Assembly (NCBI GenBank): GCA_046756385.1
Contig: JBHHWG010000004.1
Location: 5,938 to 69,937, forward strand
Direction: 5' to 3'
From: Sphingomonadales bacterium
Lineage (GTDB): Bacteria > Pseudomonadota > Alphaproteobacteria > CAZZKF01
DNA length: 64,000 nucleotides
Shown: positions 21,236-41,082 of the stretch, one piece after another
Position numbering within the stretch: position 1 is the stretch's first letter
Layout of the letters: every line of letters begins with the position of its first letter
The notes under the pieces: model-generated
The model's database searches: none
What the model saw: only the letters and a program-made list of their open reading frames with translations
What the model was told of the DNA's origin: nothing
Translations under genes and position numbers: made by a program

Positions 21236-21662
21236 GCCGACGACATTCCGGGTCCGGAGCGGCCACCGAAGAGGACAAAGAAGATGCGGACGTTTAAGCA
21301 AGTCGGGCCACTTGGACGGAAAACGGAAACAGCGTTCGTCGATCTGGTGGCCGGCCTCATTCTGGTCGGCTACGGCGCGGCCCTGGCGCCCTTCGTCAAG
21401 GGCGTACTGACTAGCGGCGTTTTTTAATCGGGTTGTCCCCCCAAGCCGGTGCGTGTGTCGAGGCGCGTCCCTCTCCCCCCGACCCTTCCCAAGCAGCGTG
21501 CTGAGGCGCCTGCACCGGCTTTTTTCCTTTACCGCCTTCCTCCCCCCCCGAAACGCACTGACAATTCACCTGCCCCTGACCCACGCCAGCCGCACAATGC
21601 CCGCCACAAGCGGTATCGCGGTGCATCTTGGACAGAATATAATTTACGGGCTACGGTGTCCC

Positions 21663-22340
21663 ATGGCCGTGTCCATTGAAAAAATTACCCACGCATTGCA
21701 GGCGATCGGCCTGACGGTCATGGGCGCCTTTCACCCCGACCCGGCCGATAAGGTGCCGCCGTGCGCCAACGGTGCGCCGGCCCGAACCCTGGTCCTGGCC
21801 GGCAATGTCGGCCCGGCGATGTGGCAAGCGTTCTCGTCGGCGGGGATTGAAGGGCCCCACCCGCTTGACCAATGGCTGAGCCATCACCTGCCTGTGCTTG
21901 CAACCGAACTGGGGGCCACGCCGCTGTTGATCAGTCAGGGCCCGCCCTATCTGCCATTTCAGCGTTGGGCCAGGCGCGCCGGTCCCTATTATTCGTCGCC
22001 GCTCGGCATTCTCATCCATCCGGTTTTCGGTCTGTGGCACGGGTTCCGGGGCGCGCTGGCGTTCCCTGAGCAGCTAACTCTGCCGCCCCGGGATGACCGG
22101 CCAGGCCCGTGCGCGTCCTGCCGTGAAAAACCCTGTCTCGACGCCTGCCCGGTCGGCGCGTTCACAAGCGACGGCTATCACGTCGCCGCCTGCATCGACC
22201 ACCTCCATGCGCCGCAAGGGCACGATTGCCTCGACCGCGGCTGCCGCGCCCGCCGCGCCTGCCCGGTCGGCCGCGACTATATTTATAAGCCCGCCCAGGC
22301 CCGCCATCACATGACCGCCTTTTTACGCGCCAACGGATAA
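21663..22340 (+). CDS. Fe-S cluster-binding (ferredoxin-like) protein
   Basis: CASCREKPCLDACP looks like a CxxCxxxxCxxxCP 4Fe-4S-type motif. There is a further Cys/His cluster at CIDHLH...CLDRGCRARRACP. The start was taken at MAVSIEK; the ORF is open from 21453. Confidence 0.55.
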   Translation: MAVSIEKITHALQAIGLTVMGAFHPDPADKVPPCANGAPARTLVLAGNVGPAMWQAFSSAGIEGPHPLDQWLSHHLPVLATELGATPLLISQGPPYLPFQRWARRAGPYYSSPLGILIHPVFGLWHGFRGALAFPEQLTLPPRDDRPGPCASCREKPCLDACPVGAFTSDGYHVAACIDHLHAPQGHDCLDRGCRARRACPVGRDYIYKPAQARHHMTAFLRANG

Positions 22341-22644: not shown

Positions 22645-23298
22645 TCACCCGCCAGAACGCTTGCCATAGGTCTCGAAGCGTTTCAGGACCCGCTCCATCT
22701 CTTGTGGCGACAGGAGGTTCGGCTCGCCGATTTGCAAGGCCCGCCAATATTGGGCCGCCAAGGTTTCGACTTCGACCGCCAGGGCCAGCGCCCGATCGAG
22801 ATCGGCCTCAAAACAAATGATGCCGTGGTTCGCGAGAAGGCAGGCTTTCCGGCCCTGGAGCGCCTTGAGCGCATTCTCGGCCAGCTCCTGAGTGCCGAAT
22901 GTCGCATAGGCCGCGCAGCGAATGTCGACCCCGCCGGCCACGGCGACCATGTAATGAAAGGCCGGAATGTCCCGGCCCAGGCACGCCAGCGCCGTCGCGC
23001 ACGGAGGATGGGCGTGAACAACGGCGCGCGCCTCGGGCCGGGTCCTGAGGATGGCGTAATGCATCGACCATTCCGATGACGGCTCCCGATCGCCGACATA
23101 ACTGCCATCGAAATGAACCAGCGGAATATGGGACGGTTCCAACTCATGGCATGGCACGCCCGATGGCGTGATCAGAAAGCCGTTTTCGACCCGCGTGCTC
23201 ACATTCCCGGACGTGCCCTGTGTCAGTCCGGCCGCGACTGTCTCGCGCGCGGTCCGGATGATCGCGCGGCGCAGAGCGAGATGAGAGACCGTGGTCAT
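22645..23298 (-). CDS. mtnB: Class II aldolase/adducin-family protein, probable methylthioribulose-1-phosphate dehydratase
   Basis: Class II aldolase metal-binding His pattern (HAHP...HGIICFE). Immediately downstream of mtnA and translationally coupled to it. Confidence 0.7.
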   Translation of the reverse strand: MTTVSHLALRRAIIRTARETVAAGLTQGTSGNVSTRVENGFLITPSGVPCHELEPSHIPLVHFDGSYVGDREPSSEWSMHYAILRTRPEARAVVHAHPPCATALACLGRDIPAFHYMVAVAGGVDIRCAAYATFGTQELAENALKALQGRKACLLANHGIICFEADLDRALALAVEVETLAAQYWRALQIGEPNLLSPQEMERVLKRFETYGKRSGG

Positions 23299-23300
23299 GC

Positions 23301-24407
23301 CTATCCCCGTGCGTCGCCGGCATGCTCGGGAAACGCCGCGGCAAGGCCCTGAACGGTGGCGGGCAGCACCCCGCGTTCCGTAATCAGGCCCGTGATCAGT
23401 TTCGCCGGCGTCACGTCGAAAGCATAATTGGCGGCCCTGGCGCCCTCGGGCGTCAGGCGGACCGTTTCAACCTGACCCGCCGCCGTGCGACCGGAAATCC
23501 ACGACACTTCATTCCCGCCGCGTTGTTCAATCGGAATGTCGGACACCCCATCCTCGATCGTCCAATCGATCGTGGTGGAGGGAAGCGCGACATAGAACGG
23601 CACGCCATTATCTTTTGCCGCCAAGGCCTTGAGATAGGTGCCAATCTTGTTGGCGACGTCACCGGCGGCGGTGGTGCGGTCGGTCCCGACGATACAAAGA
23701 TCGACCTGATCGTGCTGCATCAAATGGCCGCCGGCGTTATCGGCGATCACCGTGTGAGCCACCCCTTCGTGGCCCAATTCGAAGGCGGTCAGTGCCGCGC
23801 CCTGATTGCGGGGCCGGGTCTCGTCGACCCATATGTGGACATCAATCCCGTCGCGATGCGCCTTGTAGATAGGCGCGGTCGCCGTTCCCCAATCGACAGT
23901 CGCCAGCCACCCGGCGTTACAATGGGTGAGGATATTGACCGGCGCACCGTCGGCTTTAGCGGCGGCGATTTCGCGGATCAGTCCCAGCCCGGCCCGTCCG
24001 ATCGCCTGACTGATTTCGACGTCCCGGTCGCAAATCTCCCCCGCAAAGGAATAGGCCGCCGCCAAACGCTCGTCCGGGGCCAAATCGCCGAGCCTGTTTT
24101 GCATCGTCCCAACCGCCCATCGAAGATTGACCGCGGTTGGCCGGGTCGCCAGCAATTTGTCCGCCGCGGCGGCAATCGCCTGGTTTGACGCATCACGCCT
24201 GACCGCCAGGCAAATGCCGTAGGCCGCGGTCGCGCCAATCAGCGGCGCGCCGCGCACCAGCATGGCCTTGATCGCATGAGCCGCATCGTCAACGGTTTCG
24301 AGGCGGGCCGTTTTGAACTCATGGGGCAGCCGGGTCTGGTCTATGATCTCGACCGCCCGATCCCCGGTGGGCCAGATTGTCCGGAAGGGTCGTCCGTTTA
24401 CTCTCAT
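23301..24407 (-). CDS. mtnA: S-methyl-5-thioribose-1-phosphate isomerase (eIF-2B alpha/beta/delta-like)
   Basis: [37 protein letters not shown] and the conserved C-terminal fold. The start was chosen at MRVNG (368 aa); the ORF extends to 24635. Confidence 0.85.
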
Positions 24408-24426
24408 GTCTGCTTTCCGAGCTTGT

Positions 24427-25365
24427 TCAATTACCGGCCGGTTGGGCCGCCTGCCGGAGCCGGGTTTCAATCTGGTCGAGTTTACCGCCGATCGCCTTTC
24501 CAATGTGAATTTGCGGGAAGGACTGCTGAAACCGTTGTTGTCTCTCAAGCGCCCTGATCGTTCCCTCCGCCATTCTGAAAGCCTTGACGAAGGAATATTC
24601 CAGGCGCAAGGCCTCTGCGAAATAGGCGCGGCCAAAATAGGTGAATTTGGCGGTGTTTGTGCAGCCGAACGAGGTCCGGTCGGCGCGTGCCGCCGTCATC
24701 ATCAGGGTCTGATCGTCGCTTAACGCCTCCACGAAACCACCCGAATAACACGCTGAAATCACGATCACACGCCATTTGATCCTGGACTGATCGAGAACCT
24801 TCTGGAGTGCCGGCACGTTGATATTGTCGATCGAAAGGGGCGGCATGTCGAGCCACAGTTGGTGATCGCGCGAACCGTGGCTGGTGATGAACAGAAACAC
24901 CACATCTTCCTCGCGATCGATGGTCCGCGAGACGAAATTAAGCGCCAGACGAAGATTGTCCAAATTCGCCAGCGGCAGTTCGTCAATGGTTGCACGGTTA
25001 TTGACCATGACGATCGATCGATGATCGGTACCGAAACGTTGATCGAACAGGCTCTTGGCAAAGCGCACCTCGCTTAGGAAAACATTTTGCTTGGCATCGC
25101 CGCCGAACCCGATGAAATAAAGATCAGCGACTCCGGGCCGCTGCGGCGCCAGGGCGCGGGCCTGTTCCAGGACCAGCTTCCGCTGCATGTGCATCACGCC
25201 CCTGAAATCGATCTTTGTGGGCGCCGCGTCTTGCCTCTGTTGGGCGCGCACGACGCCGGGCCCGGCCACCGGGCAACCAAACGCAACAAACGCCAGCACC
25301 GCAAGAATACACGGTCTCAGCCTGATCCTGCTGGAAACGCCACCTGCCATTCGGTTCACCCCCAC
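24427..25365 (-). CDS. Secreted peptidase C13 (legumain/caspase-fold) family protein
   Basis: Signal peptide. The His block [10 protein letters not shown] and the Cys block [10 protein letters not shown] match the clan CD His-Gly ... Ala-Cys-x-Ser-Gly catalytic dyad arrangement. Confidence 0.55.
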
Positions 25366-25465
25366 CTGCTTGGCATGACAAGCTGGGGAGATTACATGAT
25401 TGCAATCACCACCGGCAAGGGCGGGGGCGTCACGGGAATCGACGCATCTTGCTGTGGCAACGTCC

Positions 25466-26047
25466 CTAATGCATGGTCATTGCCGGCCTCGCCGCCCGCT
25501 CGTGGCTGACGCCGGGCTCGGCCTGCATTCTTCGCATTGGCAGGAGCAGGCCGTGCCGTCGCAAGACCTGCGCCACTCGCCTCCCGTTGTCAATCAACTC
25601 GCCGACGGCGTCGGACTCGACCATCCATTCAGCCATTGTCCGCGTCAGTTGCATGTGACGATGCTGACAAGCCGCGACGAAATCGACTATGCGGACCTCA
25701 TCGGCTCCCAGACAGGGGCAGCAAGGCTGATGATGACAAAATTTGCGACGGGCGAAGCACTGTAGTCCGTTGATCAGACCAACGAAACCCGACAGCGCCT
25801 CTTGGCTGTCGCAGGGCCCGAACCGGGTTTCAAATTCGCGCCAGACCAATGGCAAATGCTCGCCTGTATTACGGCGAAGGCCGAATACCCATCGGCGGAA
25901 TGCCCATACGATCAGTCTTTCCGCGGGCTCGAGTTCGGCGGTCGAGGTGGGCCGAGTTGTTCTTATCCGGAAATTTCGCATCATGGCTGCACTCATAAAG
26001 CAATGTGGCAATGACCGGAGTATATTGCGAATGATTATCAGTTGCAA
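25466..26047 (-). CDS. Hypothetical protein with a CHHxxCCxC cluster
   Basis: 193-aa ORF with no recognised domain. Cys/His cluster FCHHQPCCPCLG. The start is uncertain. Confidence 0.3.
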   Translation of the reverse strand: MQLIIIRNILRSLPHCFMSAAMMRNFRIRTTRPTSTAELEPAERLIVWAFRRWVFGLRRNTGEHLPLVWREFETRFGPCDSQEALSGFVGLINGLQCFARRKFCHHQPCCPCLGADEVRIVDFVAACQHRHMQLTRTMAEWMVESDAVGELIDNGRRVAQVLRRHGLLLPMRRMQAEPGVSHERAARPAMTMH

Positions 26048-26110
26048 GTCGTTTAAAAATCGACGCCTTTGAACAGCCCTGACCGGCAGGAAATTATTGC
26101 GCGGTGGCGA

Positions 26111-27445
26111 TCAAGGCTTGTTTTCCGGCTTCGCGGCCTCGGCGGCGCGCCGAAGCGCCTTCTTGCGATCAGCCGGGAAGCATTCCCTGCAATCGCCGGG
26201 CGGCAGGTCCTCGGGCGGATAAAGCGCTATCTTTTGATTCTTCGGCCTGGGCTTCCCGGGGTCGATATCGCGCCGGTTGGCGCCTCTTGGAACCACCAGC
26301 CTGCCATCGCGATACTCAAGATCGGGCCACCATTTCTGGCCCTTTACGCGCTTGCCATTGCCTAACAGATCATCCAGCCATATCGCGATCCGAATCATGA
26401 CCGGCTTCAGCCACGTTGCGTTGATGCCGAGCCAACTGGCGATTCGCTGGACAATCGGCCCGTCCCTGGTCACGACCTTATTCAGGGGGCAGGTCTTCAT
26501 ACACCGCCCGCAGGCCGAGCCTTTTTGGTTGGTGACGCGGTATTTGGCGCAATTCTCAACATCCGGCTTCCAGGTTTCATAGCCGTTGAACATGACTTTG
26601 TCGCCGAACGGAATCGCGTTGCACGGGCATTCGCGGGCGCATTTGTAGCACTTGGCGCAAAAATCCTGCAGTCCGAAGTCGATCGGCTTATCGACGGTCA
26701 TCGGCAGGTCGGTGGTTACCACGCAGACCTTCATGCGCGGCCCGATGAACGGATTGAGCACCAACTCGCCAATGCGCGACATCTCGCCCAATCCGGCCAG
26801 CAGCATCAGTGGAATCTGAAGCACCTGGCCTTTCGCGGCCGAATGGCAGCGCGCGGGATAGCCCAGCCTGCGAATATAATTGGCAATCACATCGCCGCTA
26901 ATACCACCCTTTAAGTATGCGCGGTAGCTTTGGGTGCCGCTGATCCAGTCGTCGCCGGATGCCCCCTCCATCGTTTCGAAGCCCTGATCGAAAATCATTA
27001 CGATCGCGTATTTATGGCCGGGGGTAATTTCATTGCCATCCCCGTCATGTGAATACCAGGCATATTCAGGAACTTCGCAAATGCCGACCATGTCGACATC
27101 GAGAAAATAGGCCAGCGATTTGATTTGCCTGGCCATCACGTCGGGATCATCGGTTCCCGGCGCCTTGTCGGGCGCGGCCTCTCCGTCCTGGTGCTCGACC
27201 AGGGCTTTCATAAGATCGTCCATGGCGGCGGCCAGCGGATATTTATTGATCATCCGGGGCCGTTCCTGTTGGGCGCGCGGTCCGAGATCGCCAAAACGCG
27301 GCCGGGTGAAGAACGCGCCGCGCAACGGTACGCGCTTTACGGTCTCCGCGTCGATTCTGGTGGTCGGTTTATCCACTCTTTTTACCGTCTCCATCTTGTA
27401 TTTACCAAGATGAGGGGCGCGAAATTTGTATTTAAGGAACGACAA
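26111..27445 (-). CDS. Reductive dehalogenase-family homolog (cobalamin / 2x[4Fe-4S] superfamily, RdhA/QueG-like)
   Basis: Two ferredoxin-type motifs, CAKCYKCARECPCNAI and CGRCMKTCPLN, sit C-terminal to a ~250-aa domain (VDMVGICEVPEYAWYS...) that resembles the corrinoid-binding core of RdhA/QueG. No Tat signal was seen and there is no adjacent RdhB anchor. The start is uncertain. Confidence 0.5.
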   Translation of the reverse strand: MSFLKYKFRAPHLGKYKMETVKRVDKPTTRIDAETVKRVPLRGAFFTRPRFGDLGPRAQQERPRMINKYPLAAAMDDLMKALVEHQDGEAAPDKAPGTDDPDVMARQIKSLAYFLDVDMVGICEVPEYAWYSHDGDGNEITPGHKYAIVMIFDQGFETMEGASGDDWISGTQSYRAYLKGGISGDVIANYIRRLGYPARCHSAAKGQVLQIPLMLLAGLGEMSRIGELVLNPFIGPRMKVCVVTTDLPMTVDKPIDFGLQDFCAKCYKCARECPCNAIPFGDKVMFNGYETWKPDVENCAKYRVTNQKGSACGRCMKTCPLNKVVTRDGPIVQRIASWLGINATWLKPVMIRIAIWLDDLLGNGKRVKGQKWWPDLEYRDGRLVVPRGANRRDIDPGKPRPKNQKIALYPPEDLPPGDCRECFPADRKKALRRAAEAAKPENKP

Positions 27446-27729
27446 CCACCCTCTCCCACACCAACAGAATCGCTAAACTGACAAGACCGCCGAAATATCC
27501 CGGACGGAGCCCTTCCGCCCGGTCCTTAATCCCTACGGTTATAACGCCATGTCATGGCATTGTCAGAAACCCTTACAATCTTTCCGGGGAACGGCTCACT
27601 GGCGTTGGCAGGTTACTGGCGGAATGGCAAGAACATATTGTAAGTTCGCACAAATTTTGAGAGGCTGGCCCGGCCCGCAAGCGGGGTGGAGCGTCTTGAA
27701 ATCAGAAAAGCAGTGTTCGGAAAACCGCC

Positions 27730-28128
27730 ATGGAGTTCTTTGCATCAACCGAGACCGGCGACCATGACGTAAGCGCCCATGCGCGCAAAATTGGTGAGGA
27801 TGTGCTGGTCGCGATCTGGGGCGGCGACAAGCCTCATATCGGCGCCGTGGCGGCTGCCCAACCGCGCCCCAGTCTTGACGACCGAACCAGAACCAGCGCC
27901 TCAACATCCGTGATCTGCTTTGTCGGCCACAAAGAAGACGATCTGGCAAAGCATGCGGCGCAGACGCTCGCGTCGGCGTTGAAGGTGCGGGTCGTTGTCA
28001 CCGCCGGCATCCATTGGGACAACATCACGCCGGACGGAATCAAATCGGTTCGCTGCAACTGCAAGTCCGTAATCGCAAAGGTTGCCGATCTCCTGTCTGG
28101 CGCCCCGGAACGTCCGGAAACGGCCTGA
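27730..28128 (+). CDS. Hypothetical protein (132 aa)
   Basis: Intact ORF with good codon usage between the RdhA-like and MCP genes. No recognised motif. Confidence 0.3.
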
Positions 28129-28312
28129 CCGACCCCCTTCGAATTCACGCCCCAGCCCCCTGTTTTTCACTACCGACCATCACATTTGTTTACTAGTCCT
28201 TTACCACCCAGCCAATAGGCTCACAACAATGGCAGGAGCAAGCACCGCCCTGATTCCAGCATCTCTTGTCGATATTGCCGATTTTTCTGACGTGAAGCAG
28301 AGGAGTATTTCC

Positions 28313-29644
28313 ATGGCAAAGTTCGAGCCCGATGCACAGGGCCGGTTGGCATTTCTGGCCATCAATCAAAAGACGTTTGAAATTCTTGGCAAATTATGGC
28401 CAAGCATCGAACCCAGGATCATCCATATTGTGGGCGGTTTCTTCGACCATTTGACGTCGGTGCCTCACTTGCGCAAGGCGTTAAAGGGGGTTGATTTCGA
28501 AAAATTGAAGCAGCGTCAGGTCGAACATTGGCAACAACTTTTCACGCAGGGAATTGATGACGCCTTCATCAAATTCACGACGGATGTCGGCGCCGAGTAT
28601 CACAAACTAGGGTTCGAGCCGCGCTGGTTCCTGGGAAGCTACGCGGTTGAATTCCGTGGCTTCCAGGCGGTCGCGAACAGGACTTTCAGGAACGCCCCCA
28701 AGGAGTTGGCCGCCGCAACCACCGCTATTAACAAGATCCATGTTCTGGTAACCGAGGTCCTGGTCTCATCTTATTACGCAGCCTCCCGCCAGGCGGCGCG
28801 GGCTGAGCTCGAAAAACACGCCAGGGCTTTTGAAACCGGCGTCCTGGCGATGGTCGATTCGGTTGCGGCCGCAACCAGCCAGGTGCGTGATACCACCCGG
28901 AACATGCTCGTTTCCGCAACCGAGGCCAGCGACCTGAGCAGCTCGGTCAAAGAGGCATCCAATCGGGCGTCGGAGAATGTCCAGGCCGTGGCCTCCGCGG
29001 CCGAGGAATTGGCGGCTTCAGTGTCCGAGGTCAGCCGGCAGGTGTTGCAGGCGGCTCAGGCCACCGACGACGCGGCGACAGAAGCCGACGGATCCACCGA
29101 AACAATCAGCAGCCTGATGGAGGCCTCTGAACGAATCGGCGACGTTGTAAAGCTGATCTCCGACATCGCCTCGCAAACCAACCTGTTGTCCCTCAACGCT
29201 ACAATCGAGGCGGCGCGGGCCGGCGATGCGGGCCGCGGCTTCGCCGTTGTGGCCTCAGAGGTCAAGACACTCGCCGGGCAAACCGCCAAGGCGACCGGCG
29301 ATATCGCCGCTCAGATCGGCGCCATTCAGCAGGCCACCAAGCGCGTCGTCGCCGCGAATGACAAGATCACCGGCTCGATCGGCAATGTAAGGGATGTCTC
29401 GGCCGCGATCGCTTCAGCGATCGAGCAGCAGGGAGCCACCGCCGCCGAGATCAGCCGTAACATCAACAATGCGGCAAACGGCACCGAGGAAGTTTCCGAT
29501 GGCACAAACAACGTCGACGGCGCATCGCGGCGCACGGGCGACGCGGCCCGGGAGGTCAGCACCGCCGCCGAAGACATCGCCGGCAAGGTGGCGACATTGA
29601 ACACCCAGGTTCAGGATTTCCTGATCGCGGTGCGTAGCCACTGA
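28313..29644 (+). CDS. Globin-coupled sensor methyl-accepting chemotaxis protein (protoglobin-MCP, HemAT-like), copy 1
   Basis: AGGAGT ribosome-binding site. An ~170-aa N-terminal protoglobin-type sensor ([21 protein letters not shown]...[26 protein letters not shown]...). MCP signalling domain with the highly conserved region [35 protein letters not shown]. No TM segments, so soluble. Confidence 0.85.
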
Positions 29645-29787
29645 CCGGCGGGGAAAAGGCCCTCTGAGTGATTGAGATTGTGGCGGATTGCAGCGCGATC
29701 CGCCGTTGTCCTTTTTAGCCTGTCATTCACCAAAGTTCGGTCACACTCCCAATACATAAGAACAAACTCTACCGTGGGGCGAGGACT

Positions 29788-31119
29788 GTGGCAAAAACCG
29801 AAATCGACATCGCCGGGCGGCTGGCTTTCCTCGGCATCGATGAAACGATCTTCACTGTGCTCGGCACGCTTTGGCTCCATATAGAGCCCGAAATTGACGA
29901 TATTTGCGGGCGGTATCTGGCTCACATGATGTCAGTTCCGCATCTGCGTGAGAAATGGCGGAATGTCGATTTCGACAAGCTCAAACACCGCCTGCCTGGA
30001 CAGTGGCGCGAGATATTCACCAAGGGAATTACTGAGAATCTCGTCCAGCGCGTTGCCGAACGCGGCTTCAATTTCCACCGCGATGGCTTCGAACCGCGCT
30101 GGTTTCTGGGCAGCTACGCTGTCGGGTTCGACGGCTTTGAAAAAATCGCCATTCGGGTCTACCGGGATCACCCCAAAGAGTTGACCGCCGCGATTTCAGC
30201 GCTTGGCAAAATCGAGATCTTGATCACCGATATCATGGTATCTGCCTATTACGAAGCCTCGCGGATAGCTGCTCAGGCGGAACTCGATCGCCATGCCGAG
30301 GTTTTCGAAACCGGGGTCATGGCAACCGTCCAGACGGTCGCTGCCGCAACCGAACAAGTTCGCCAGGTCACTCGGGAAATGTTTGAAGCCGCCAATCAAA
30401 CCAACGCACTGAGCAGTGCGGTAACCCAGGCGTCCAACAAGGCGTCGGAAAATGTCCATGGCGTCGCCACTGCTTCGGAGGAAATGGTCGCGTCGGTAGC
30501 GGAGGTCAACAACCAGCTATCCCGCGCGGCCAAAGCGACCAATGCCGCCGCGAACCAGGCCAGCGGCTCCACCGAATCGACAGAGAGCCTGATTGAGGCA
30601 TCGGAGCGTATCGGAAATGTTTCGGAACTTATCTCGGATATTGCCTCCCAAACCAATCTGTTGGCGCTTAATGCGACGATCGAGGCAGCCCGGGCTGGCG
30701 ACGCGGGCCGGGGGTTTGCGGTGGTGGCGTCCGAGGTCAAATCCCTGGCCGGTCAGACGGCAAAGGCCACAAGCGACATTTCGGCCCAGATCGATGCCAT
30801 ACAAGTTGCGACCCGGCAGGTCGTGGCCGCCAACAGCAAGATCGAGGGATCGATCGACAACATTAAAACGGTCGCCGGTTCGATCTACAGTTCAGTGCAG
30901 CAGCAGGGCGCCGCGGCGGATGAAATCAGCCGCAACATTCAGATGGCGGCCATGGGCACTCAAGAGGTTTCCGAAGGAACAGGAGAGGTCGACAACGCGT
31001 CCAGGCGCACGAGCAACGCCGCCCAGGCGGTGTTGCAAGCCACGGAAGATATCACTGGCAAAGTCGAAACTCTCAACAGCCAGGTCGGGGACTTCATCAA
31101 AGCGGTTCGAAGCGAATGA
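29788..31119 (+). CDS. Globin-coupled sensor methyl-accepting chemotaxis protein, copy 2 (tandem paralog)
   Basis: Collinear 443-aa paralog of copy 1 with the same domain order: protoglobin sensor then the MCP signalling domain [35 protein letters not shown]. Confidence 0.85.
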
Positions 31120-31152: not shown

Positions 31153-31728
31153 TTACCCCGCATTTCCGGTTCCGGCCCATCGCTTGACAGTGCCTGCATC
31201 GATGCCGAACAGGTCGAGCAGCCGCCCCACCGAATGATTGACCAGATCGTCGATTGTCTTGGGCCGGGTGTAAAGCGCCGGCATTGGCGGCGCGATCACC
31301 GCACCCAGCGTGCTGGCCTCGTACAGAAGCTTGCAGTGCCCGGTATGAAGCGGCGTTTCCCGGGGCATGAGCACCAGCCGGCGGCGCTCTTTCAGCACCA
31401 CGTCAGCCGCCCGGACCAGGAGGTTGTCGGCATAGGAATGCACAACCGCCGACAGGGTCTTCATCGAGCACGGCACGATGACCATGCCCGCGGTCTGGAA
31501 CGACCCGCTTGCTATGGTGGCTCCGACATTACCCTGGTTATGCACTTCATCGGCCAGGGCCTCGACGTCCCGAACCGACCATTCGGTTTCGAGCGCGATA
31601 TTCATCTTGGCCGCCGAACTGAGCACCAGATGGGTCTCGACCTCAGGCAGGCCCCTCAGCACTTCAAGAAGCCGGATTCCGTAAATCAGGCCGCTCGCCC
31701 CTGACATCCCGACAATCAATCGCATCAC
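31153..31728 (-). CDS. ubiX: UbiX-type flavin prenyltransferase (prenylated-FMN synthase)
   Basis: 191 aa. MRLIVGMSGASG and GMVIVPCSMKTLSAV motifs of the UbiX/Pad1 family. Confidence 0.85.
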   Translation of the reverse strand: MMRLIVGMSGASGLIYGIRLLEVLRGLPEVETHLVLSSAAKMNIALETEWSVRDVEALADEVHNQGNVGATIASGSFQTAGMVIVPCSMKTLSAVVHSYADNLLVRAADVVLKERRRLVLMPRETPLHTGHCKLLYEASTLGAVIAPPMPALYTRPKTIDDLVNHSVGRLLDLFGIDAGTVKRWAGTGNAG

Positions 31729-32402
31729 GCTTCCCCTTTTTTTGCCGCGTCCGTTCCTGGCGTTGAGAACGCCCGGATAAAATGGTCAACGGCCCCCTTT
31801 ACAGTCGCCACGATTTCATTCGTTCGCGGCGGTTTAGGATCGATGCAGAATCGTCTGAATGTTGCCCGGTGCAAGATCGCTCCGGTCAGAAAATCGGCAG
31901 CCGCCCTCGGGTCGTCGACCACGATGTGCCCCGCCCTGTGGTGATCCTCAAGGAAATTCTCCAGCGTTTTGTAGGCAAGCGCCGGGCCATGGCGGTAATA
32001 GATGCCACCAATCTCGGGAAAGCGGCGCGCCTCGGCAACGACAAGGCGGGACAGATTGATATGCCGCTCCGACAGCACCAACTCAAGCAATCGCCGGCCG
32101 ATCAGCTCCAGCCCCTGGCGCAGTTCCATGCCAGCCAGTTCGACAGGGCTCAGAGCGGCGGTCTGGTCACCGATCAACTTGATCACGACCGATTCGAATA
32201 GCTTTTCCTTGCTCTTGAAATGGGCGTACACGGTCGATTTCGATCCGCCAACCCGCTCGACCAGTTGATTCATGCTCGCCGCCCCGTAGCCCACTTCCAG
32301 GAACAGCTCGGCCGCTGCCGCCAAAATAGCTTCCCGTTTGGCCGAAATTCTGACCCCGGGCGGCTGGTTCGTCGAAGGTTCAAACGACATCACGAAATCC
32401 AT
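31725..32402 (-). CDS. TetR-family transcriptional regulator
   Basis: HTH: ILAAAAELFLEVGYGAASMNQLVERVGGSKSTVYAHFKSKE. Coupled to ubiX and divergent from the UbiD-family gene. Confidence 0.8.
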   Translation of the reverse strand: MDFVMSFEPSTNQPPGVRISAKREAILAAAAELFLEVGYGAASMNQLVERVGGSKSTVYAHFKSKEKLFESVVIKLIGDQTAALSPVELAGMELRQGLELIGRRLLELVLSERHINLSRLVVAEARRFPEIGGIYYRHGPALAYKTLENFLEDHHRAGHIVVDDPRAAADFLTGAILHRATFRRFCIDPKPPRTNEIVATVKGAVDHFIRAFSTPGTDAAKKGEA

Positions 32403-32720
32403 GCTTCACTCTTTCGGGCTTTACGATCGCGGGCGCCAGACAAGGAGGGCACCGAAAGCGGCAACCGTCCCCAAGCCGACCAACCGCTTAAACTATCGAA
32501 TCCTGCTTGGCGAATCTGACGCCAATATTTGACTCCATATGTACCATACGGTACGGTACAGTCTAACATGCAACAGAGCTGGTGTACAGAACCATGACCT
32601 AAAGGTTCCGAACCGCCGGAATTCTGGGATTGATCAGCTAGTGGTCCGGGCGGATATCCGGGAACCAAATGTCTTTGTCGGACCACTAGCCCGACAAAGA
32701 GATGAATGGGAGCGCGCCAC

Positions 32721-34238
32721 ATGGCACCAAAGGATTTTAGAACTTTTCTGGCCGGCCTTGAAGAACAGGACCAGCTGCTTCGCATCCCGGCCGAGATCGA
32801 CACCCTGGACGAGATGGGGGCGTTTATCGCACGGGCCGACTATGAGGGCGTCGACAAGGGGTTGCTGTTCGAAAACCCCAGGGGCTTTGATATTCCGGTG
32901 TTCGCCAACACTGTAGGCTCCACCTATCGCCGCATCGCCGAGGTGTTCGACGTTCCCGTTGAGCAGGCCCTGTCCGGCGCCGCCAGGAAGATGAGCGAGA
33001 TTATGAAATCCGGCGGCATCGCACCGGTTCGGGTCGACAAGGACAAGGCGCCGTGCAAGGAAATCATCCTGAAGGGCAAGGAGGCCGACTTGACGCGGCT
33101 CCCGATCCTGCGGCTAAATCCGGAAGATGGCAAAGGCAGCAGAAACTTTGCCGAGGGGCGGTATATCTGCGCGCCAGCCTGCACCAATCCGTCTCCCAAC
33201 GCCCGCAATCTGTCCTATCACCGGTTTGAGACCACGGGTCCCACCGATGGGTCGGTGTGGGTGTTCCGGGGAACGGGCGACGCCACAAGCATGGAGGAGG
33301 CGTGGGGCGCCAAGATCGACGCCCCCCACGAAACATGGGACCTCGACCAGGCCAAGCCGTTCCACATGGCTTTCGTGATCGGCGTGGGGCCGGAATTCAT
33401 CCTGACCGGCGCCAATTCAGCCCTGCCCTACAACTACGATGACTTCTCCTTCGTCGGCGGGCTGAGGGGCGAGCCGGTCGAAATGGTCAAATGCGAAACC
33501 ATCGACGTCGACGTGCCCGCAAATGCCGAAATCGTCATCGAAGGCATAATGAAACCGTTCGATTGGACGATCCAGGGCCGCTTCGCCTCGTTCAACGGCT
33601 TTTACGACGAGCCGCGCCGCCGGCCGGCTTTCGAAGTCACGGCGATCACCATGCGCAAAAAGCCCATCTATCAGCATGTTCATATCGGGCGGCCGCTCAA
33701 CGAATGCAACAATATCGCGGCGTTCTTCCGGTCGGTTCGCGTCTTTCTCGATCTCAAGGCAGTGTTGCCCAATGTCCAGGATGTGTTCGTCGACCCGGCC
33801 GCCGGCTGTGGTTTCACGGCCCACGTCTCGCTCGACAAGAAACGCATCGGCGAGCCCAAAATGGCGATGATGCGCGCCTACACCGCGCTTCAGGGATTCT
33901 GCAAACATGTGTTCGTTTACGACAAGGACATCGACATCCGCAATCCGCACGAACGCGACTGGGCGCTGGCCCATCGGTTCATGGCCGATCGCGACATACT
34001 GACGATTCCCAATGTCGTGGGCATGAATATTGACCCCCTGGCTCAGGGCCGGGTCGGCGTTGCGTCCAAGCTCGGAGTCTATGATGGCCATCCGGAAATT
34101 CCGTTGAATGTGCGCAGTTTCATGGGCATGGACTGCACGGTGCCCCTGGGTCTCAAGGTCATGGAACGGGTGGTGGCCAAACCCGAGCTTGAGGCGCGGG
34201 TCGACGAAATCTGGGCCGCCATGAACACGCTGAAATAA
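32721..34238 (+). CDS. UbiD-family (prFMN-dependent) reversible decarboxylase
   Basis: About 505 aa. UbiD fold from its length and conserved blocks. Confidence 0.8.
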   Translation: MAPKDFRTFLAGLEEQDQLLRIPAEIDTLDEMGAFIARADYEGVDKGLLFENPRGFDIPVFANTVGSTYRRIAEVFDVPVEQALSGAARKMSEIMKSGGIAPVRVDKDKAPCKEIILKGKEADLTRLPILRLNPEDGKGSRNFAEGRYICAPACTNPSPNARNLSYHRFETTGPTDGSVWVFRGTGDATSMEEAWGAKIDAPHETWDLDQAKPFHMAFVIGVGPEFILTGANSALPYNYDDFSFVGGLRGEPVEMVKCETIDVDVPANAEIVIEGIMKPFDWTIQGRFASFNGFYDEPRRRPAFEVTAITMRKKPIYQHVHIGRPLNECNNIAAFFRSVRVFLDLKAVLPNVQDVFVDPAAGCGFTAHVSLDKKRIGEPKMAMMRAYTALQGFCKHVFVYDKDIDIRNPHERDWALAHRFMADRDILTIPNVVGMNIDPLAQGRVGVASKLGVYDGHPEIPLNVRSFMGMDCTVPLGLKVMERVVAKPELEARVDEIWAAMNTLK

Positions 34239-34617
34239 ATCATCCGCCAAGCTTCTTCCTTAGGGCCGCCCAAGGCTTGGTAAGCGTCATCGGCATTGAT
34301 GAAACAGATGCCATTGTCGCGTTTCCCTTTTCGAGCCCTGGGCGGCTTGCCAGCTTTCCTTATTGGAATCAACGGGCTTCGACTATCCCCATCGAGCGCC
34401 CCCCGCGGAAAATTGGGATGAGTTTTCCGCCAAAAACTGGAAAGATTCCCTAATTATTGTAGGGCAACCTTGCAATTCCCAAATTGCACGGCTACTCTTG
34501 CTATATCAAGCGTCAGTGTCCTCGGGCTTGCCGTCAAATATTATTGCTTGGAATTGGCCGGTTTTGTTCCGCGAGTTCTCGAAGGCGCAATAATTCTTGT
34601 TCTCACCGGGGGAGGCA

Positions 34618-37335
34618 ATGCTCAAAAATTGGCTGGAAAGCACGACCGCGATTGTTGCTATAGGCACGATCGCGGGAACAACTTTTAACGTTCAGGCGCA
34701 GGAAGTTTCGGATCAGGATCAGCAGGCCGACGCCGCGGCTTTTGAGATTGAGGAGATTGTGGTCACCGCCCGCCGACGATCCGAGCTCATGCAGGACATC
34801 CCGATCTCGATGACGGCCGTCGGCCGGCTTGACATGGACCGGGCAGGTTACGAGACCATTGGCGACCTTTCGTTCGGTGTCGCGAACTTCTCTTTTGCCG
34901 ATCAGGGTTCGATTCTGGGCGATTTCGGCATGCGGGGCATCACCACCAACGTCGCCAATCCCGGCGTCGAATCAGCCATGGCGGTTTATGTCGACGGGGT
35001 TCTGATCGGCCGGCCGGCATCGTTTGACGCGGTATTGCAGGGCGTCGAGCAAGTCGAGATTCTGCGTGGCCCGCAGGGCACCCTGTTTGGCAAGAACACG
35101 GTCGCCGGCGCGGTCAACATAACCACCCAGCGGCCGACCGAAGAGGTGTCCGGCAATCTCAAGCTTGAAGCCGGCCGATTCCAGCGTGGCGCGGCCAGTG
35201 GCTCGCTCAACGTCCCGCTCCTTGGCGACAAGCTGATGGCGCGGGCTTCCTTGTCGGTGGAGCAGCAGGACGGCTGGATCAGGAATTTGAACGATGCCCG
35301 AAGGTTCAATGGCGAGGACAACTGGTCCGGCCGCTTCCAGTTGCTGGCGCGGCCGTCCGACACGGTCGAGGTATACTGGACCATCGACCGTTTCTTTGAC
35401 GATCGAACATTTGTCGCCCAGCTCAATGATGATCCAGACTCCCTGAAAACCAATCCAGGTGTCGATATTGACGCCGGAATTATCGACATCGATTCGGATA
35501 GCAGGTCCAAGCGCGATATCTGGGGCACTTCGCTCGAAGTCAATGTCGAGACCAGCGGCGGTTACGCCATTACCGGTGTCGGCGCCTACCGGCAGACCAA
35601 TTTCGACAGCCTGTTCGATGGCGACACCACGCGCCAGCGGCTGCAAGACACCACCCAGGCCGACAACACTGACCAGTACACTTTCGAACTGCGGGTGGCG
35701 TCGCCCGAGGGAAGGAAACTGGACTGGGTCGCCGGCGCCTATGTGTTCATTCAGGACATCAAGGGGTTCAACGAGCGGCGGTTCTTCCCCAAGGACATCC
35801 TCGCCGGCTGTACCGCGCCGGTCAGTCCTGACTTTTTCCGTGGCTCCCAGGGCAAGGGGCGGTTCTTTCCAACCTCGCGGTTCGTCGGCTTCGACGCGGC
35901 GGGTCTGCCGATTTGGGAGTTCGATTTTGACAATGACGGCGTCTTCGGCGAAGCGGCGGACGTTACCACACCGGTCGGCGCCACGGTCAACGAGAACATT
36001 GGCTGCCACAATCCGGGCATGATCGCTTTTGCCCGCCATCTGCCAGGCGGCGATGCGGAGGATCAATTCATTCCGTTTTTTGACGGGCTGACAACCGTCG
36101 ATGACGTTCCCGAAGAAATCGTCGTGCGCCAAAGCGGCTCGGTGAATACCGACGCGTATGCCCTGTTCGCGCACGCCAATTACCACTTCACCGATCAATT
36201 GACGCTGACCGGGGGCGCGCGCCATACCTGGGAAAACAAGGACGTCGACCTGACCCAAACCGGCATGATCAATATCGCGCGGCCCAGCTTCACCAAGCAG
36301 GACAGCCGCAAGGACCGCGAATGGTCGGGCACCGGGTCGCTGACCTATGAATGGAACGACGAGGTAACCACCTACATAAAATACGCCCATGGCTTCAAGT
36401 CGGGCGGCTTCCAGTTCGACGTGACCCAGGGCGAAAAGGTTTCGGCCTTCAACGCCTTGGCCACCAAAAGCCCGTTCATACCCTTTTTCCTCAAGGCCAA
36501 TCCGGGCGCTACCAAGCAGGACGTGATCAACGCGCTAATCGCTGCGTCGGCCGACCCGAATGAAGCCCCGGACAATGTCGAGTTCGAGCCGGAAAACGTG
36601 AATGTCTATGAGGTCGGCCTGAAGACCCAGTTGTTCAATCGCAAACTGCGGCTTAACATCGCCGGCTTTCTTACCGATTACAACAATGTTCAGCAGAACA
36701 TTCTCAACCTCGCCACCGGCATTATCGTTCTAAACGTCCCGGGCGCCAGGGTTTGGGGGTTCGAGGCCGATATGGTCGCCCGTCCCACGTCCGGGCTGAC
36801 GGTTACCGGCGGCGTCGGCACCGCATTCAGCGATATCCGGAACGCGCTGATCATTCCCAACCCGGTCGCCGGCCAGCCGCCGTTGGTGGACACTACCGAT
36901 TTCCTGGGCCTGAGGCTCGCTCAGTCGCCGGAGGTGACCGCCAACGCATCTGTCACCTATACCATGCCGGTCGGGGCGACTGGAAACATCGTGGTCCGCG
37001 GCGACTGGAGCTTCACGGGCAGTATTTTCCACGAGCTTGATCCCAATCCGTCTCAGCGGGCCAAGGTGTTCGAGGCCAGCTATAACCTGGTCAACGCCCG
37101 CATCGGCTATGTCTCGGATGCCAACGACTGGGAAGTCTTCTTCTGGGGCAAGAACATCTTTAACGAACGTTATGCCGCGTTCCGCCGCGCCAACCCGATC
37201 AACCGGAATTTCGGCATTCCGGCGGGCGGAGCAGTCGTCAACGCCCCGCCATTCCGGTTCCCGGGCTCTGCAACGGGGCAGTCGATTTCCGGCCTTCCAA
37301 GGACTTGGGGCGTGACCCTGCAAAAACACTTCTAA
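34618..37335 (+). CDS. TonB-dependent outer-membrane receptor
   Basis: Signal peptide. Plug-domain motifs (IVVTARRRSELMQDIPISMT...) with TonB box. The 22-strand barrel ends in a C-terminal Phe (LQKHF). Confidence 0.85.
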   Translation: MLKNWLESTTAIVAIGTIAGTTFNVQAQEVSDQDQQADAAAFEIEEIVVTARRRSELMQDIPISMTAVGRLDMDRAGYETIGDLSFGVANFSFADQGSILGDFGMRGITTNVANPGVESAMAVYVDGVLIGRPASFDAVLQGVEQVEILRGPQGTLFGKNTVAGAVNITTQRPTEEVSGNLKLEAGRFQRGAASGSLNVPLLGDKLMARASLSVEQQDGWIRNLNDARRFNGEDNWSGRFQLLARPSDTVEVYWTIDRFFDDRTFVAQLNDDPDSLKTNPGVDIDAGIIDIDSDSRSKRDIWGTSLEVNVETSGGYAITGVGAYRQTNFDSLFDGDTTRQRLQDTTQADNTDQYTFELRVASPEGRKLDWVAGAYVFIQDIKGFNERRFFPKDILAGCTAPVSPDFFRGSQGKGRFFPTSRFVGFDAAGLPIWEFDFDNDGVFGEAADVTTPVGATVNENIGCHNPGMIAFARHLPGGDAEDQFIPFFDGLTTVDDVPEEIVVRQSGSVNTDAYALFAHANYHFTDQLTLTGGARHTWENKDVDLTQTGMINIARPSFTKQDSRKDREWSGTGSLTYEWNDEVTTYIKYAHGFKSGGFQFDVTQGEKVSAFNALATKSPFIPFFLKANPGATKQDVINALIAASADPNEAPDNVEFEPENVNVYEVGLKTQLFNRKLRLNIAGFLTDYNNVQQNILNLATGIIVLNVPGARVWGFEADMVARPTSGLTVTGGVGTAFSDIRNALIIPNPVAGQPPLVDTTDFLGLRLAQSPEVTANASVTYTMPVGATGNIVVRGDWSFTGSIFHELDPNPSQRAKVFEASYNLVNARIGYVSDANDWEVFFWGKNIFNERYAAFRRANPINRNFGIPAGGAVVNAPPFRFPGSATGQSISGLPRTWGVTLQKHF

Positions 37336-39121: not shown

Positions 39122-39124
39122 GGT

Positions 39125-40846: not shown

Positions 40847-41082
40847 GCCGGACACGCCCCTCCCCTGTTCCGATTGTTTGATCCCGGGCCCCGGCGAAAA
40901 CCCGGTCGACCGACGCTGAACCCTCGGCGGTTGACCCTTTATAACACCGGCCCCGGCCCCGGCACGAGGGATTCTGCCCGGCCATTCGGTCATTCCGGTC
41001 GACCGCCCGCCGGTTCCACTTGACTTTGGCCGCCGATTGTAGGAAGTCGAACCTTCCGCCCGGCATCCCCGCCCGGCACCGC

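What the first reader, a model, noticed from the sequence alone, without database searches (positions are those of the whole stretch)
26111..27445. Reductive-dehalogenase-family homolog without membrane anchor or Tat signal
A 444-aa ORF has two ferredoxin-type 4Fe-4S motifs (CAKCYKCARECPCNAI and CGRCMKTCP) following a core that resembles the cobalamin-binding domain of RdhA and QueG enzymes. I saw no twin-arginine signal and there is no RdhB-like anchor gene, which is the pattern of cytoplasmic 'catabolic' dehalogenases. It could alternatively be an unusual QueG-like reductase. The neighbouring Cys/His-rich ORF at 25466..26047 is unexplained.
Basis: partly seen in the sequence, partly recalled or inferred. 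Interest (0 to 1): 0.55.

Follow-up and report, generated by a model that had tools for sequence, protein, structure and literature searches.

The report
Short cytoplasmic reductive dehalogenase, NpRdhA lineage
This gene encodes a soluble vitamin-B12 and iron-sulfur enzyme closely related to a known bacterial enzyme that strips bromine or chlorine from phenolic compounds; it is unusual only in lacking the extra dummy domain that its closest relatives carry.

Summary
ORF 26111..27445 (-) is a real 444-aa gene. It has a Shine-Dalgarno-like purine run before its TTG start, and 29 orthologues begin at the same N-terminus. It has no Tat motif and no hydrophobic segment, and there is no RdhB-like ORF nearby.

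It is a reductive dehalogenase, not QueG. TIGR02486 scores 161.6 bits (cutoff 160.35), against 24 of 200 for QueG. The best solved relative is the catabolic dehalogenase NpRdhA (E 2e-156, 53% identity). The AF2 model (pLDDT 91.7) superposes on NpRdhA at TM 0.92. All eight Fe-S cysteines are conserved, as are the catalytic and phenol-binding residues S173, Y177, K239 and R303.

The new point is that the protein matches only the catalytic half of NpRdhA (residues 254-686). It lacks the vestigial duplicated B12-like domain said to define catabolic RdhAs, and it lacks a reductase domain. It belongs to a monophyletic ~445-aa clade from marine alphaproteobacterial MAGs. That clade is nested among domain-bearing forms whose N-domains arose once, so the domain was probably lost secondarily.

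Neighbours are not conserved, and no redox partner lies in the 64 kb. The 193-aa neighbour is a real orphan-family gene not linked to rdhA elsewhere. This is a modest variant of a known kind.

The parts
26111..27445 (-). rdhA-like CDS: 444 aa, TTG start, stop codon included. A short, single-core cytoplasmic reductive dehalogenase of the NpRdhA lineage.
   Evidence: TIGR02486 161.6 bits; NpRdhA E 2e-156; 52.8% identity to NpRdhA residues 254-686; AF2 pLDDT 91.7; Foldseek TM 0.92 to 6ZY0/4RAS.
27446..27457 (-). Shine-Dalgarno-like purine run GGGAGAGGGTGG immediately upstream of the TTG start.
   Evidence: Read from the sequence. This is sequence inspection only, not evidence of function.
27238..27445 (-). 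N-terminal segment, aa 1-69. It corresponds to NpRdhA residues ~246-315 and includes the pocket residues F45, M65 and I66 (NpRdhA F290, F310, P311).
   Evidence: Alignments. The N-terminal motif is shared with the N-termini of the long forms.
26681..27237 (-). Cobalamin-binding core domain, aa ~70-255, with S173, Y177 and K239 (NpRdhA S422, Y426, K488).
   Evidence: This region also matches the vestigial N-domain of long forms at about 30% identity.
26471..26680 (-). Ferredoxin-like 2x[4Fe-4S] domain, aa ~256-325. Cysteines at 263, 266, 269, 273, 299, 312, 315 and 319; R303 corresponds to NpRdhA R552.
   Evidence: Fer4_7 matches aa 263-321 at 24.4 bits, below Pfam's cutoff of 27.
26114..26470 (-). 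C-terminal extension, aa 326-444. It aligns to NpRdhA residues ~569-686 and is not a reductase domain.
   Evidence: alignment. In one search, pLDDT is 66-73 for aa 321-350 and above 85 afterwards.

Best explanation
The gene encodes a soluble, cytoplasmic, corrinoid- and 2x[4Fe-4S]-dependent reductive dehalogenase (RdhA) of the NpRdhA (Nitratireductor pacificus) lineage.

By analogy with NpRdhA, the mechanism would run as follows. Electrons from a separately encoded low-potential donor, probably a housekeeping ferredoxin or flavodoxin system, pass through the two [4Fe-4S] clusters to the cobalamin. An ortho-halogenated phenolic substrate is held by its hydroxyl group through S173, K239 and R303. 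The reduced cobalt attacks the halogen, and Y177 protonates the carbon. The products are halide and the dehalogenated phenol, which can then enter aromatic catabolism.

The protein differs from every characterised relative in this lineage. It consists only of the catalytic half and has neither the vestigial duplicated B12-like N-domain nor a C-terminal reductase domain. It belongs to a distinct ~445-aa clade that most probably lost the vestigial domain secondarily. In NpRdhA that domain occupies the place of the second subunit of the respiratory RdhA dimer, so the short enzyme is inferred to homodimerise.

Shown here: family, fold, conserved cofactor ligands and catalytic residues, absence of export and anchor features, the short architecture and its phylogenetic position. 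Inferred only: corrinoid content, substrate class, electron donor and dimer state.
For: Family and fold:
- TIGR02486 scores above its curated cutoff.
- phmmer against the PDB gives NpRdhA 4RAS/6ZXU at E 2e-156, with query 9-440 aligned to NpRdhA 254-686. PceA gives 1e-23 and QueG 0.007.
- The AF2 model has pLDDT 91.7 and pTM 0.92. Foldseek gives TMq 0.92 and rmsd 2.0 A to NpRdhA. TMt is only 0.59 because the target has an extra domain.

Residues:
- NpRdhA S422, Y426, K488 and R552 are conserved as S173, Y177, K239 and R303. Their roles in binding the substrate hydroxyl and donating the proton are described in PMC7565698.
- All eight Fe-S cysteines are conserved.

Cytoplasmic and stand-alone:
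- No Tat motif, no hydrophobic segment and no RdhB-like ORF.

Short architecture is genuine:
- An in-frame stop lies upstream and a Shine-Dalgarno-like run precedes the start.
- 29 orthologues at 63-81% identity share the same N-terminus.
- N-domain queries hit only the rdhA core itself in the window and in L001-L007.

Phylogeny:
- The short clade is monophyletic in 100/100 NJ bootstraps.
- It is nested behind two or more successive branches made only of N-domain-bearing forms in 92/100 replicates.
- The N-domains of all long forms form one clade in 60/60 replicates. They are as distant from their own core (26.8%) as from other cores (26.3%), which indicates a single ancient duplication.

Catabolic role:
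- Related short forms sit inside aromatic-catabolism operons. L081 has IclR, HpaB, LigB, rdhA (11-nt overlap with LigB) and two MFS transporters. L083 has a TRAP transporter, two rdhA genes, a cupin protein and an FAA-hydrolase-family protein.
- An HpaB-family gene also lies 2-4 kb from the rdhA in L004, L013 and L014, which belong to the query's own clade.

Literature:
- In NpRdhA the vestigial domain mimics the dimer partner of respiratory RdhAs (PMC10463259).
Against: - No biochemical data exist. Corrinoid binding and activity are untested.
- The TIGR02486 score clears its cutoff by only 1.3 bits, and PF13486 does not match.
- The window gives no operonic support. The flanking genes (an HHQPCCPC-family orphan, a PAC_bac protein, two globin-coupled MCPs) are unrelated to aromatic catabolism and are not conserved in other short-clade loci.
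- No ferredoxin, flavodoxin or reductase gene and no cobalamin riboswitch was found in the 64 kb.
- The hydrophobic pocket differs from NpRdhA: M423 becomes Y174 in 27 of 30 short-clade members, F310 becomes M65 and P311 becomes I66. The exact substrate may therefore differ.
- The trees are neighbour-joining on simple distances. With L081 and L083 added, the basal branches are short, and loss versus two gains is equally parsimonious on topology alone. The single-origin result for the N-domains is what tips the balance towards loss.
- Homodimerisation was not modelled.
Confidence: 0.8

Rival explanations
1. The short clade is an ancestral single-domain form that never acquired the vestigial domain. 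It would be a surviving pre-duplication lineage rather than a secondary loss. The enzymology would be the same as in the best explanation.
For: Deeper-branching TAT-less relatives are also single-domain: P0136, P0149, P0151, P0174, P0176, P0199 and L081, L083a/b. In 8 of 100 bootstraps only one N-domain-only branch separates the short clade from the base. Once L081 and L083 are included, loss and double gain cost the same number of steps on topology alone.
Against: The N-domains of all sampled long groups form one clade in 60/60 replicates. They are equidistant from their own core and from foreign cores, so the duplication happened once, before the long groups diverged. In 92/100 replicates the short clade sits inside that radiation, next to the P0028-P0121 long group at 56-59% identity, while other long groups are at 34-50%.
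Confidence: 0.13
2. It is a B12/Fe-S reductase of the RdhA fold that carries out reductive chemistry other than dehalogenation. The substrate would be non-halogenated, as with QueG's epoxide reduction.
For: The clade-specific pocket change M423 to Y174, the changes at F310 and P311, the lack of any catabolic operon in this window, and the marginal TIGR02486 score.
Against: There is 53% identity to a proven dehalogenase across the whole catalytic half. The Tyr/Lys/Arg/Ser set that binds the halophenol and protonates the carbanion is strictly retained. QueG-specific similarity is negligible. Related short forms sit in aromatic-degradation operons.
Confidence: 0.05
3. The ORF is a 5'-truncated remnant (pseudogene) of a long NpRdhA-type gene, or an assembly artefact.
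For: Its nearest solved relative is 700 aa, and NCBI annotated a different, shorter start.
Against: Thirty independent metagenomic and MAG orthologues have the same length and N-terminus. A Shine-Dalgarno-like run precedes the start. All catalytic and cofactor residues are conserved across 63-81% identity, which indicates purifying selection. No N-domain remnant is found upstream or elsewhere. The AF2 model is compact and confident.
Confidence: 0.02

Closest known systems
NpRdhA, the catabolic reductive dehalogenase of Nitratireductor pacificus pht-3B (PDB 4RAS, 6ZXU, 6ZY0, 6ZY1)
   Same: 52.8% identity over the catalytic half and TM 0.92. It also has no Tat signal, no RdhB and no fused reductase (the 'truncated' type). 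The eight Fe-S cysteines are the same, as are S422, Y426, K488 and R552.
   Different: NpRdhA has a ~250-aa vestigial duplicate of the B12 core at its N-terminus that makes it a monomer (PMC10463259). The window protein lacks it entirely. Pocket residues differ: M423 to Y, F310 to M, P311 to I, A419 to G. [quoted passage not shown]
Self-sufficient catabolic RdhAs (BhbA of Comamonas sp. 7D-2, JtRdhA of Jhaorihella thermophila)
   Same: Same lineage and catalytic residues. Reductase-fused representatives P0123, P0130 and P0131 are 44-49% identical in the core.
   Different: These carry both the vestigial N-domain and a C-terminal PDOR-like NAD(P)H reductase domain (PMC10463259). The window protein has neither.
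'Simplified cytosolic type' RdhA-like proteins (Han et al. 2025, PMC12219181) and the single-domain TAT-less debrominase Ros_A3X954 from Roseobacter (PMC13101508)
   Same: Same bare architecture: no Tat signal, no TM segment, no vestigial domain, no reductase. One B12 core plus two [4Fe-4S] clusters.
   Different: The simplified types are described from Desulfobacterota and Chloroflexota and average 395 aa. Ros_A3X954 matches PF13486 and has different Fe-S motifs (CDICTKCADACP / CAICMRVCP). The window protein does not match PF13486 and sits inside the proteobacterial NpRdhA radiation, so it probably reached the architecture by domain loss. I did not have those sequences and could not place them in the tree.
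Respiratory RdhA (PceA of Sulfurospirillum multivorans, PDB 4UQU)
   Same: Same B12 core plus 2x[4Fe-4S] fold (E 1e-23, TM ~0.56) and a similar length of ~450 aa. It is presumably also a homodimer.
   Different: PceA has a Tat signal, an RdhB anchor and a periplasmic, respiratory role. All of these are absent here.
QueG, epoxyqueuosine reductase (PDB 5D08)
   Same: Same B12 class-III superfamily and a ferredoxin-like domain.
   Different: Only 24 bits against TIGR00276 (cutoff 200) and TM ~0.36. No HEAT-like tRNA-binding C-terminal domain was detected.

Membership tests
Reductive dehalogenase catalytic subunit family (RdhA; TIGR02486 / PF13486) | Match to the curated family profile above its cutoff | tested here: met
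   TIGR02486 scores 161.6 bits against a cutoff of 160.35, which is marginal. PF13486 gives no hit at E <= 0.01, but none of the 120 closest homologues has it either.
Reductive dehalogenase catalytic subunit family (RdhA; TIGR02486 / PF13486) | Two [4Fe-4S] binding motifs (CxxCxxCxxxCP and C...CxxCxxxCP, eight Cys) | tested here: met
   Cysteines at 263, 266, 269, 273, 299, 312, 315 and 319, invariant across 133 homologues.
Reductive dehalogenase catalytic subunit family (RdhA; TIGR02486 / PF13486) | Cobalamin-binding nitroreductase-like core fold | tested here: met
   AF2 pLDDT 91.7. Foldseek TM 0.92 and rmsd 2.0 A to NpRdhA.
Reductive dehalogenase catalytic subunit family (RdhA; TIGR02486 / PF13486) | Bound corrinoid and dehalogenating activity | not testable with these tools
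   Needs purified protein, with UV-vis/EPR or ICP-MS and halide-release assays.
Catabolic RdhA in the sense of Payne/Fisher/Leys (NpRdhA, BhbA, JtRdhA) | No Tat signal and no RdhB anchor gene (cytoplasmic) | tested here: met
   No RR motif, highest KD19 mean 1.19, no small multi-TM ORF within 24000..29500.
Catabolic RdhA in the sense of Payne/Fisher/Leys (NpRdhA, BhbA, JtRdhA) | Vestigial duplicated cobalamin-binding-like N-terminal domain (PMC10463259) | tested here: not met
   The query aligns only to NpRdhA 254-686. An in-frame stop lies upstream. No N-domain is encoded elsewhere in the window. Foldseek TMt is 0.59.
Catabolic RdhA in the sense of Payne/Fisher/Leys (NpRdhA, BhbA, JtRdhA) | Catalytic and ortho-halophenol-binding residues Y426, K488, R552 (and S422) | tested here: met
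   Y177, K239, R303 and S173. Their roles are described in PMC7565698.
Catabolic RdhA in the sense of Payne/Fisher/Leys (NpRdhA, BhbA, JtRdhA) | C-terminal PDOR-like reductase domain (self-sufficient subgroup only) | tested here: not met
   The C-terminal 120 aa align to the NpRdhA tail and no reductase domain was found. NpRdhA also lacks it.
'Simplified cytosolic type' RdhA (PMC12219181) | Cytosolic, lacking the vestigial domain, about 400 aa | tested here: met
   The architecture matches.
QueG epoxyqueuosine reductase | Match to TIGR00276 above cutoff, plus a C-terminal HEAT-like domain | tested here: not met
   24.3 bits against a cutoff of 200. PDB QueG gives E 0.007 and TM ~0.36.
Respiratory RdhA (PceA type) | Tat signal peptide and an adjacent rdhB gene | tested here: not met

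The most novel reading that the evidence does not exclude
The ~445-aa clade is a naturally minimal, oxygen-tolerant dehalogenase. After shedding the vestigial domain it would have re-formed a PceA-like homodimer. It would use a remodelled pocket (Y174 in place of NpRdhA M423) to act on a class of natural marine organohalogens different from the 3,5-dihalo-4-hydroxybenzoates used by NpRdhA, and draw electrons from housekeeping ferredoxin. This would make uncultured pelagic Rhodospirillales unrecognised players in the marine organobromine cycle. It would also provide a natural experiment on why catabolic RdhAs carry the vestigial domain.
Probability: 0.25. Interest if true: 0.5.

Novelty: new variant of a known kind. 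Interest (0 to 1): 0.33.

Why it matters
Catabolic reductive dehalogenases are sought after for bioremediation and biocatalysis because they are soluble and oxygen-tolerant. The characterised members of this lineage are 700-1100-aa multidomain proteins that are hard to express.

A natural 444-aa relative, 53% identical to the enzyme with a crystal structure, would be a compact scaffold. It would also test directly what the vestigial domain is for: monomerisation, stability or partner docking.

The clade appears in many marine metagenomes and MAGs. If active, it would widen the set of organisms thought to dehalogenate natural bromophenolics.

The enzyme class, fold, cofactors and likely chemistry are all well known, and single-domain cytosolic RdhAs have already been described. 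This is an increment, not a surprise.

Tried and rejected
1. QueG reading: rejected.

2. It is uninformative because the whole NpRdhA lineage lacks it in precomputed Pfam.

3. A separately encoded vestigial domain (split gene): tblastn with nine N-domains found only the rdhA core itself in the window and in L001-L007.

4. Functional link to the 193-aa Cys/His-rich ORF: rejected. It belongs to a 15-member alphaproteobacterial orphan family with an invariant HHQPCCPCLGADE motif. In three other genomes it is not near any rdhA, and it is absent next to other short rdhAs.

5. A conserved operon partner for the short clade: all-vs-all BLAST of neighbours in 11 short-form loci found no family shared beyond closely syntenic genomes. 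The exception is an HpaB-family gene in 4 loci.

6. An electron-donor gene in the window: Pfam scans of about 50 ORFs found no ferredoxin, flavodoxin or ferredoxin-reductase.

7. A cobalamin riboswitch: none. Rfam finds only one tRNA.

8. Promoter and terminator scan around the gene: no more sites than in shuffled sequence.

9. Looking up the window's own contig through P0001: not on record.

10. My first clade-definition bootstraps gave low values because P0134, P0121 and P0125 wander between groups. I replaced them with a nestedness test and an N-domain single-origin test.

11. A link between the UbiD/UbiX/TetR module (31153..34238) and the rdhA: plausible in chemical terms, since these are hydroxyaromatic-acid decarboxylases. 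However, two MCP genes separate them and the module is not seen in other loci, so I left it as a weak hint only.
Full report
**1. Observation**

The ORF at 26111..27445 (minus strand) is real. It is 444 aa with a TTG start and a GC3 of 0.71, typical of genes in this 57-64% GC window. An in-frame stop lies upstream, and the purine run GGGAGAGGGTGG directly precedes the TTG. Twenty-nine homologues of 440-457 aa start at the equivalent residue with the motif M..F.YKFR.PHLGKYPMETVKRVD. The 444-aa reading is therefore better than NCBI's 421-aa call for the identical protein. That protein is P0001, annotated 'hypothetical protein ACE5EM_01150', from a Sphingomonadales bacterium MAG.

With Cys299 they give the eight cluster ligands. 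There is no twin-arginine motif. The highest 19-residue hydropathy mean is 1.19, and it is -0.14 in the first 60 residues. No small multi-TM ORF lies within 24000..29500. There is therefore no export signal, no membrane anchor and no rdhB.

**2. What it is**

NCBIfam's reductive dehalogenase model TIGR02486 scores 161.6 bits, just above its cutoff of 160.35. QueG (TIGR00276) scores 24.3 against a cutoff of 200. Pfam sees only a sub-threshold Fer4_7 match, and PF13486 does not hit. None of the 120 nearest homologues has PF13486 in precomputed Pfam either, so that profile misses this lineage.

Against solved structures, the best match by far is NpRdhA, the catabolic dehalogenase of Nitratireductor pacificus (4RAS, 6ZXU, 6ZY0), at E 2e-156. 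PceA gives 1e-23 and QueG 0.007.

An AlphaFold2 model built on a 45-sequence alignment has mean pLDDT 91.7 and pTM 0.92. It superposes on NpRdhA with TM 0.92 (query-normalised), rmsd 2.0 A and 50% identity. The values are about 0.56 for PceA and about 0.36 for QueG.

I took residue numbers from the HMMER alignment and re-aligned with MAFFT. The NpRdhA residues that bind the substrate hydroxyl and donate the proton are S422, Y426, K488 and R552 (roles in PMC7565698 and PMC10463259). They are conserved here as S173, Y177, K239 and R303. All eight cysteines are invariant in 30 short, 90 long, 4 reductase-fused and 9 respiratory-type homologues.

The hydrophobic side of the pocket differs. NpRdhA M423 is Tyr (Y174) in 27 of 30 members of the query's clade, but Met in 90 of 90 of the nearest long forms. 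F310 becomes M65, P311 becomes I66 and A419 becomes G170.

**3. The unexpected part: architecture**

The query aligns only to residues 254-686 of NpRdhA. A second, weak alignment of the query core to NpRdhA 45-222 reflects the known internal duplication. [quoted passage not shown] This domain mimics the partner subunit of the respiratory dimer and makes NpRdhA a monomer. Most members also carry a C-terminal PDOR reductase domain (PMC10463259).

The window protein has neither domain. This is not truncation, for four reasons:
- Thirty proteins from independent metagenomes and MAGs, at 63-81% identity, share the architecture.
- Five species-representative marine Rhodospirillales MAGs carry it (L011-L015).
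- tblastn with nine N-domains finds nothing in the window or in seven related loci except the rdhA core itself.
- The N-termini of the long forms carry the same M..F....RP.HLG.YP.E..PR motif as the short forms. The duplicated unit therefore began at residue 1 of a short-like ancestor.

**4. Evolution**

The trees are neighbour-joining on Kimura-corrected distances, rooted with respiratory-type relatives.
- The short clade is monophyletic in 100/100 bootstraps.
- The short clade together with all N-domain-bearing forms is monophyletic in 100/100.
- In 92/100 replicates, at least two successive branches consisting only of N-domain-bearing forms separate the short clade from the base of that group.

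The query's nearest long relatives are the P0028-P0121 group at 55-59% identity. NpRdhA itself groups with P0122 and the reductase-fused forms.

Two further single-domain lineages, L081 and L083a/b at 54-55% identity, branch at the base. Deeper TAT-less relatives of ~390-425 aa are also single-domain. On topology alone, one gain plus one loss costs the same as two gains.

The N-domains settle the question. Those of 26 diverse long forms make a single clade in 60/60 replicates. They are as far from their own core (26.8% identity) as from other cores (26.3%). The duplication therefore happened once, before the long groups diverged, and the nested short clade most probably lost the domain.

This inference rests on a simple distance method and should be re-tested by maximum likelihood.

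**5. Context**

The gene stands alone in the window.
- Downstream, on the same strand, is the ORF 25466..26047.
- Upstream and divergent is a PAC_bac (PF21758) gene at 27730..28128.
- Next come two tandem protoglobin-MCP sensor genes (28082..31119).
- Further on are UbiX, a TetR regulator, a UbiD-family decarboxylase and a TonB-dependent receptor (31153..37335).

No ferredoxin, flavodoxin or reductase gene is present in the 64 kb, and there is no cobalamin riboswitch.

Neighbours differ among short-clade loci. The more distant short forms do sit in aromatic-catabolic operons:
- L081: IclR, HpaB, LigB, then rdhA (overlapping LigB by 11 nt), two MFS transporters and a glyoxalase-family protein.
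- L083: TRAP transporter DctPQM, two tandem short rdhA genes, a cupin-domain protein (possibly a ring-cleavage dioxygenase) and an FAA-hydrolase-family protein. The two rdhA products are 59% identical and both have intact catalytic residues.

An HpaB-family gene also lies 2-4 kb away in L004, L013 and L014, which belong to the query's own clade. This supports a catabolic role on hydroxy-aromatic substrates for the wider group. For this particular gene it is only indirect support.

**6. The neighbouring ORF**

The ORF at 25466..26047 encodes a real protein. Fifteen homologues were found, all from Alphaproteobacteria or metagenomes, 157-197 aa long, with invariant motifs including HHQPCCPCLGADE and a C-terminal His. 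Its start is probably Met23. It has no Pfam, NCBIfam or PDB match. In three other genomes it has unrelated neighbours and no rdhA. I treat it as an unrelated orphan.

**7. Mechanism**

The mechanism is inferred by homology. Electrons from an unlinked low-potential donor pass through two [4Fe-4S] clusters to base-off cobalamin. An ortho-halophenolic substrate is anchored through its hydroxyl by S173, K239 and R303. A Co-halogen interaction leads to C-X cleavage, and Y177 donates the proton. This is the scheme described for NpRdhA (PMC7565698). Without the vestigial domain, the enzyme is expected to homodimerise through the exposed surface, as PceA does. I did not test this.

**8. Comparison and novelty**

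The class is known. Single-domain cytosolic RdhA-like proteins have been described as the 'simplified cytosolic type' in Desulfobacterota and Chloroflexota (PMC12219181). A single-domain TAT-less Roseobacter debrominase has been characterised (PMC13101508). What is new here is a proteobacterial clade inside the NpRdhA radiation that reached this architecture by losing the hallmark domain, and that carries a clade-specific pocket substitution. I rate it a new variant of a known kind, of modest interest.

Noticed in passing
window 21672..22340 (+), within ORF 21453..22340: A 223-aa protein (NCBI ACE5EM_01120, 'hypothetical') with no Pfam hit. Its AF2 model (pLDDT 93.6) matches human MMACHC/CblC best (TM 0.55-0.59, E 7e-7), then QueG, then RdhAs. 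It has a ferredoxin-like tail with eight invariant cysteines. More than 3800 homologues exist, mostly alphaproteobacterial and annotated as hypothetical or ferredoxin. It may be an uncharacterised Fe-S-containing CblC-like B12-processing or reductase family. It lies 4 kb from the rdhA but is absent from the other short-rdhA loci.
   Followed up: partly
window 25466..26047 (-), probable start at 25981: A real gene of a small alphaproteobacterial orphan family (15 homologues, 157-197 aa) with an invariant HHQPCCPCLGADE motif and a C-terminal His. It has no Pfam, NCBIfam or PDB match. Its neighbours vary in other genomes and it is not linked to rdhA.
   Followed up: yes
L083 4670..7308: Two short-form rdhA genes in tandem, overlapping by 4 nt. 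Their products are 59% identical and both have intact catalytic and Fe-S residues but different pocket residues. They sit between a TRAP transporter (DctPQM) and genes for a cupin-domain protein and an FAA-hydrolase-family protein in a Pseudomonadota MAG. This could be a heterodimeric pair, or a living analogue of the state before duplication and fusion.
   Followed up: partly
L081 2441..10658: In an Emcibacteraceae MAG, a short rdhA overlaps a LigB-type extradiol dioxygenase gene by 11 nt. The apparent operon also contains an IclR regulator, an HpaB-family monooxygenase, two MFS transporters and a glyoxalase-family protein. This is the clearest catabolic context found for single-domain relatives.
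   Followed up: partly
window 28082..29644 and 29788..31119 (+): Two tandem paralogous globin-coupled sensors (protoglobin domain plus MCP signalling domain). They lie just upstream of the divergent PAC_bac gene at 27730..28128.
   Followed up: no
window 31153..34238: UbiX flavin prenyltransferase (-), a TetR regulator (-) and a divergent UbiD-family decarboxylase (+). The decarboxylase scores 240.9 bits against TIGR00148 (cutoff 244.85) and 219 bits against VdcC, well below that model's cutoff. A TonB-dependent receptor follows at 34597..37335. This may be a hydroxyaromatic-acid decarboxylase module. Its chemistry is compatible with the products of an NpRdhA-type reaction, but no link was shown.
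   Followed up: partly
window 7408..15221: Genes for quinohemoprotein amine dehydrogenase maturation: a subtilase-family peptidase, an ABC exporter, the maturation radical SAM protein (TIGR03906, 663 bits) and the flavin monooxygenase QhpG (NF049967, 435 bits). A phosphate-type ABC transporter lies between them.
   Followed up: partly
window 53913..~59300: The start of a Mu-like transposable prophage or element: an S24/HTH repressor (-), then a Mu-type transposase (HTH_Tnp_Mu_1, rve, Mu-transpos_C; 714 aa) and an AAA+/TniB-like protein (+). The ORFs that follow have no Pfam match.
   Followed up: no
window 22645..24635 (-) and 24427..25365 (-): A class II aldolase (FucA/MtnB-like) and the methylthioribose-1-phosphate isomerase MtnA (methionine salvage), followed by a C13 (legumain/caspase-like) peptidase homologue. 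The MtnA ORF as listed has a ~75-aa N-terminal extension that is probably not translated.
   Followed up: no
window 41083..41156 (+): A single tRNA gene, the only Rfam match in the window. It lies next to two large TPR-methyltransferase genes at 37412..41110.
   Followed up: no
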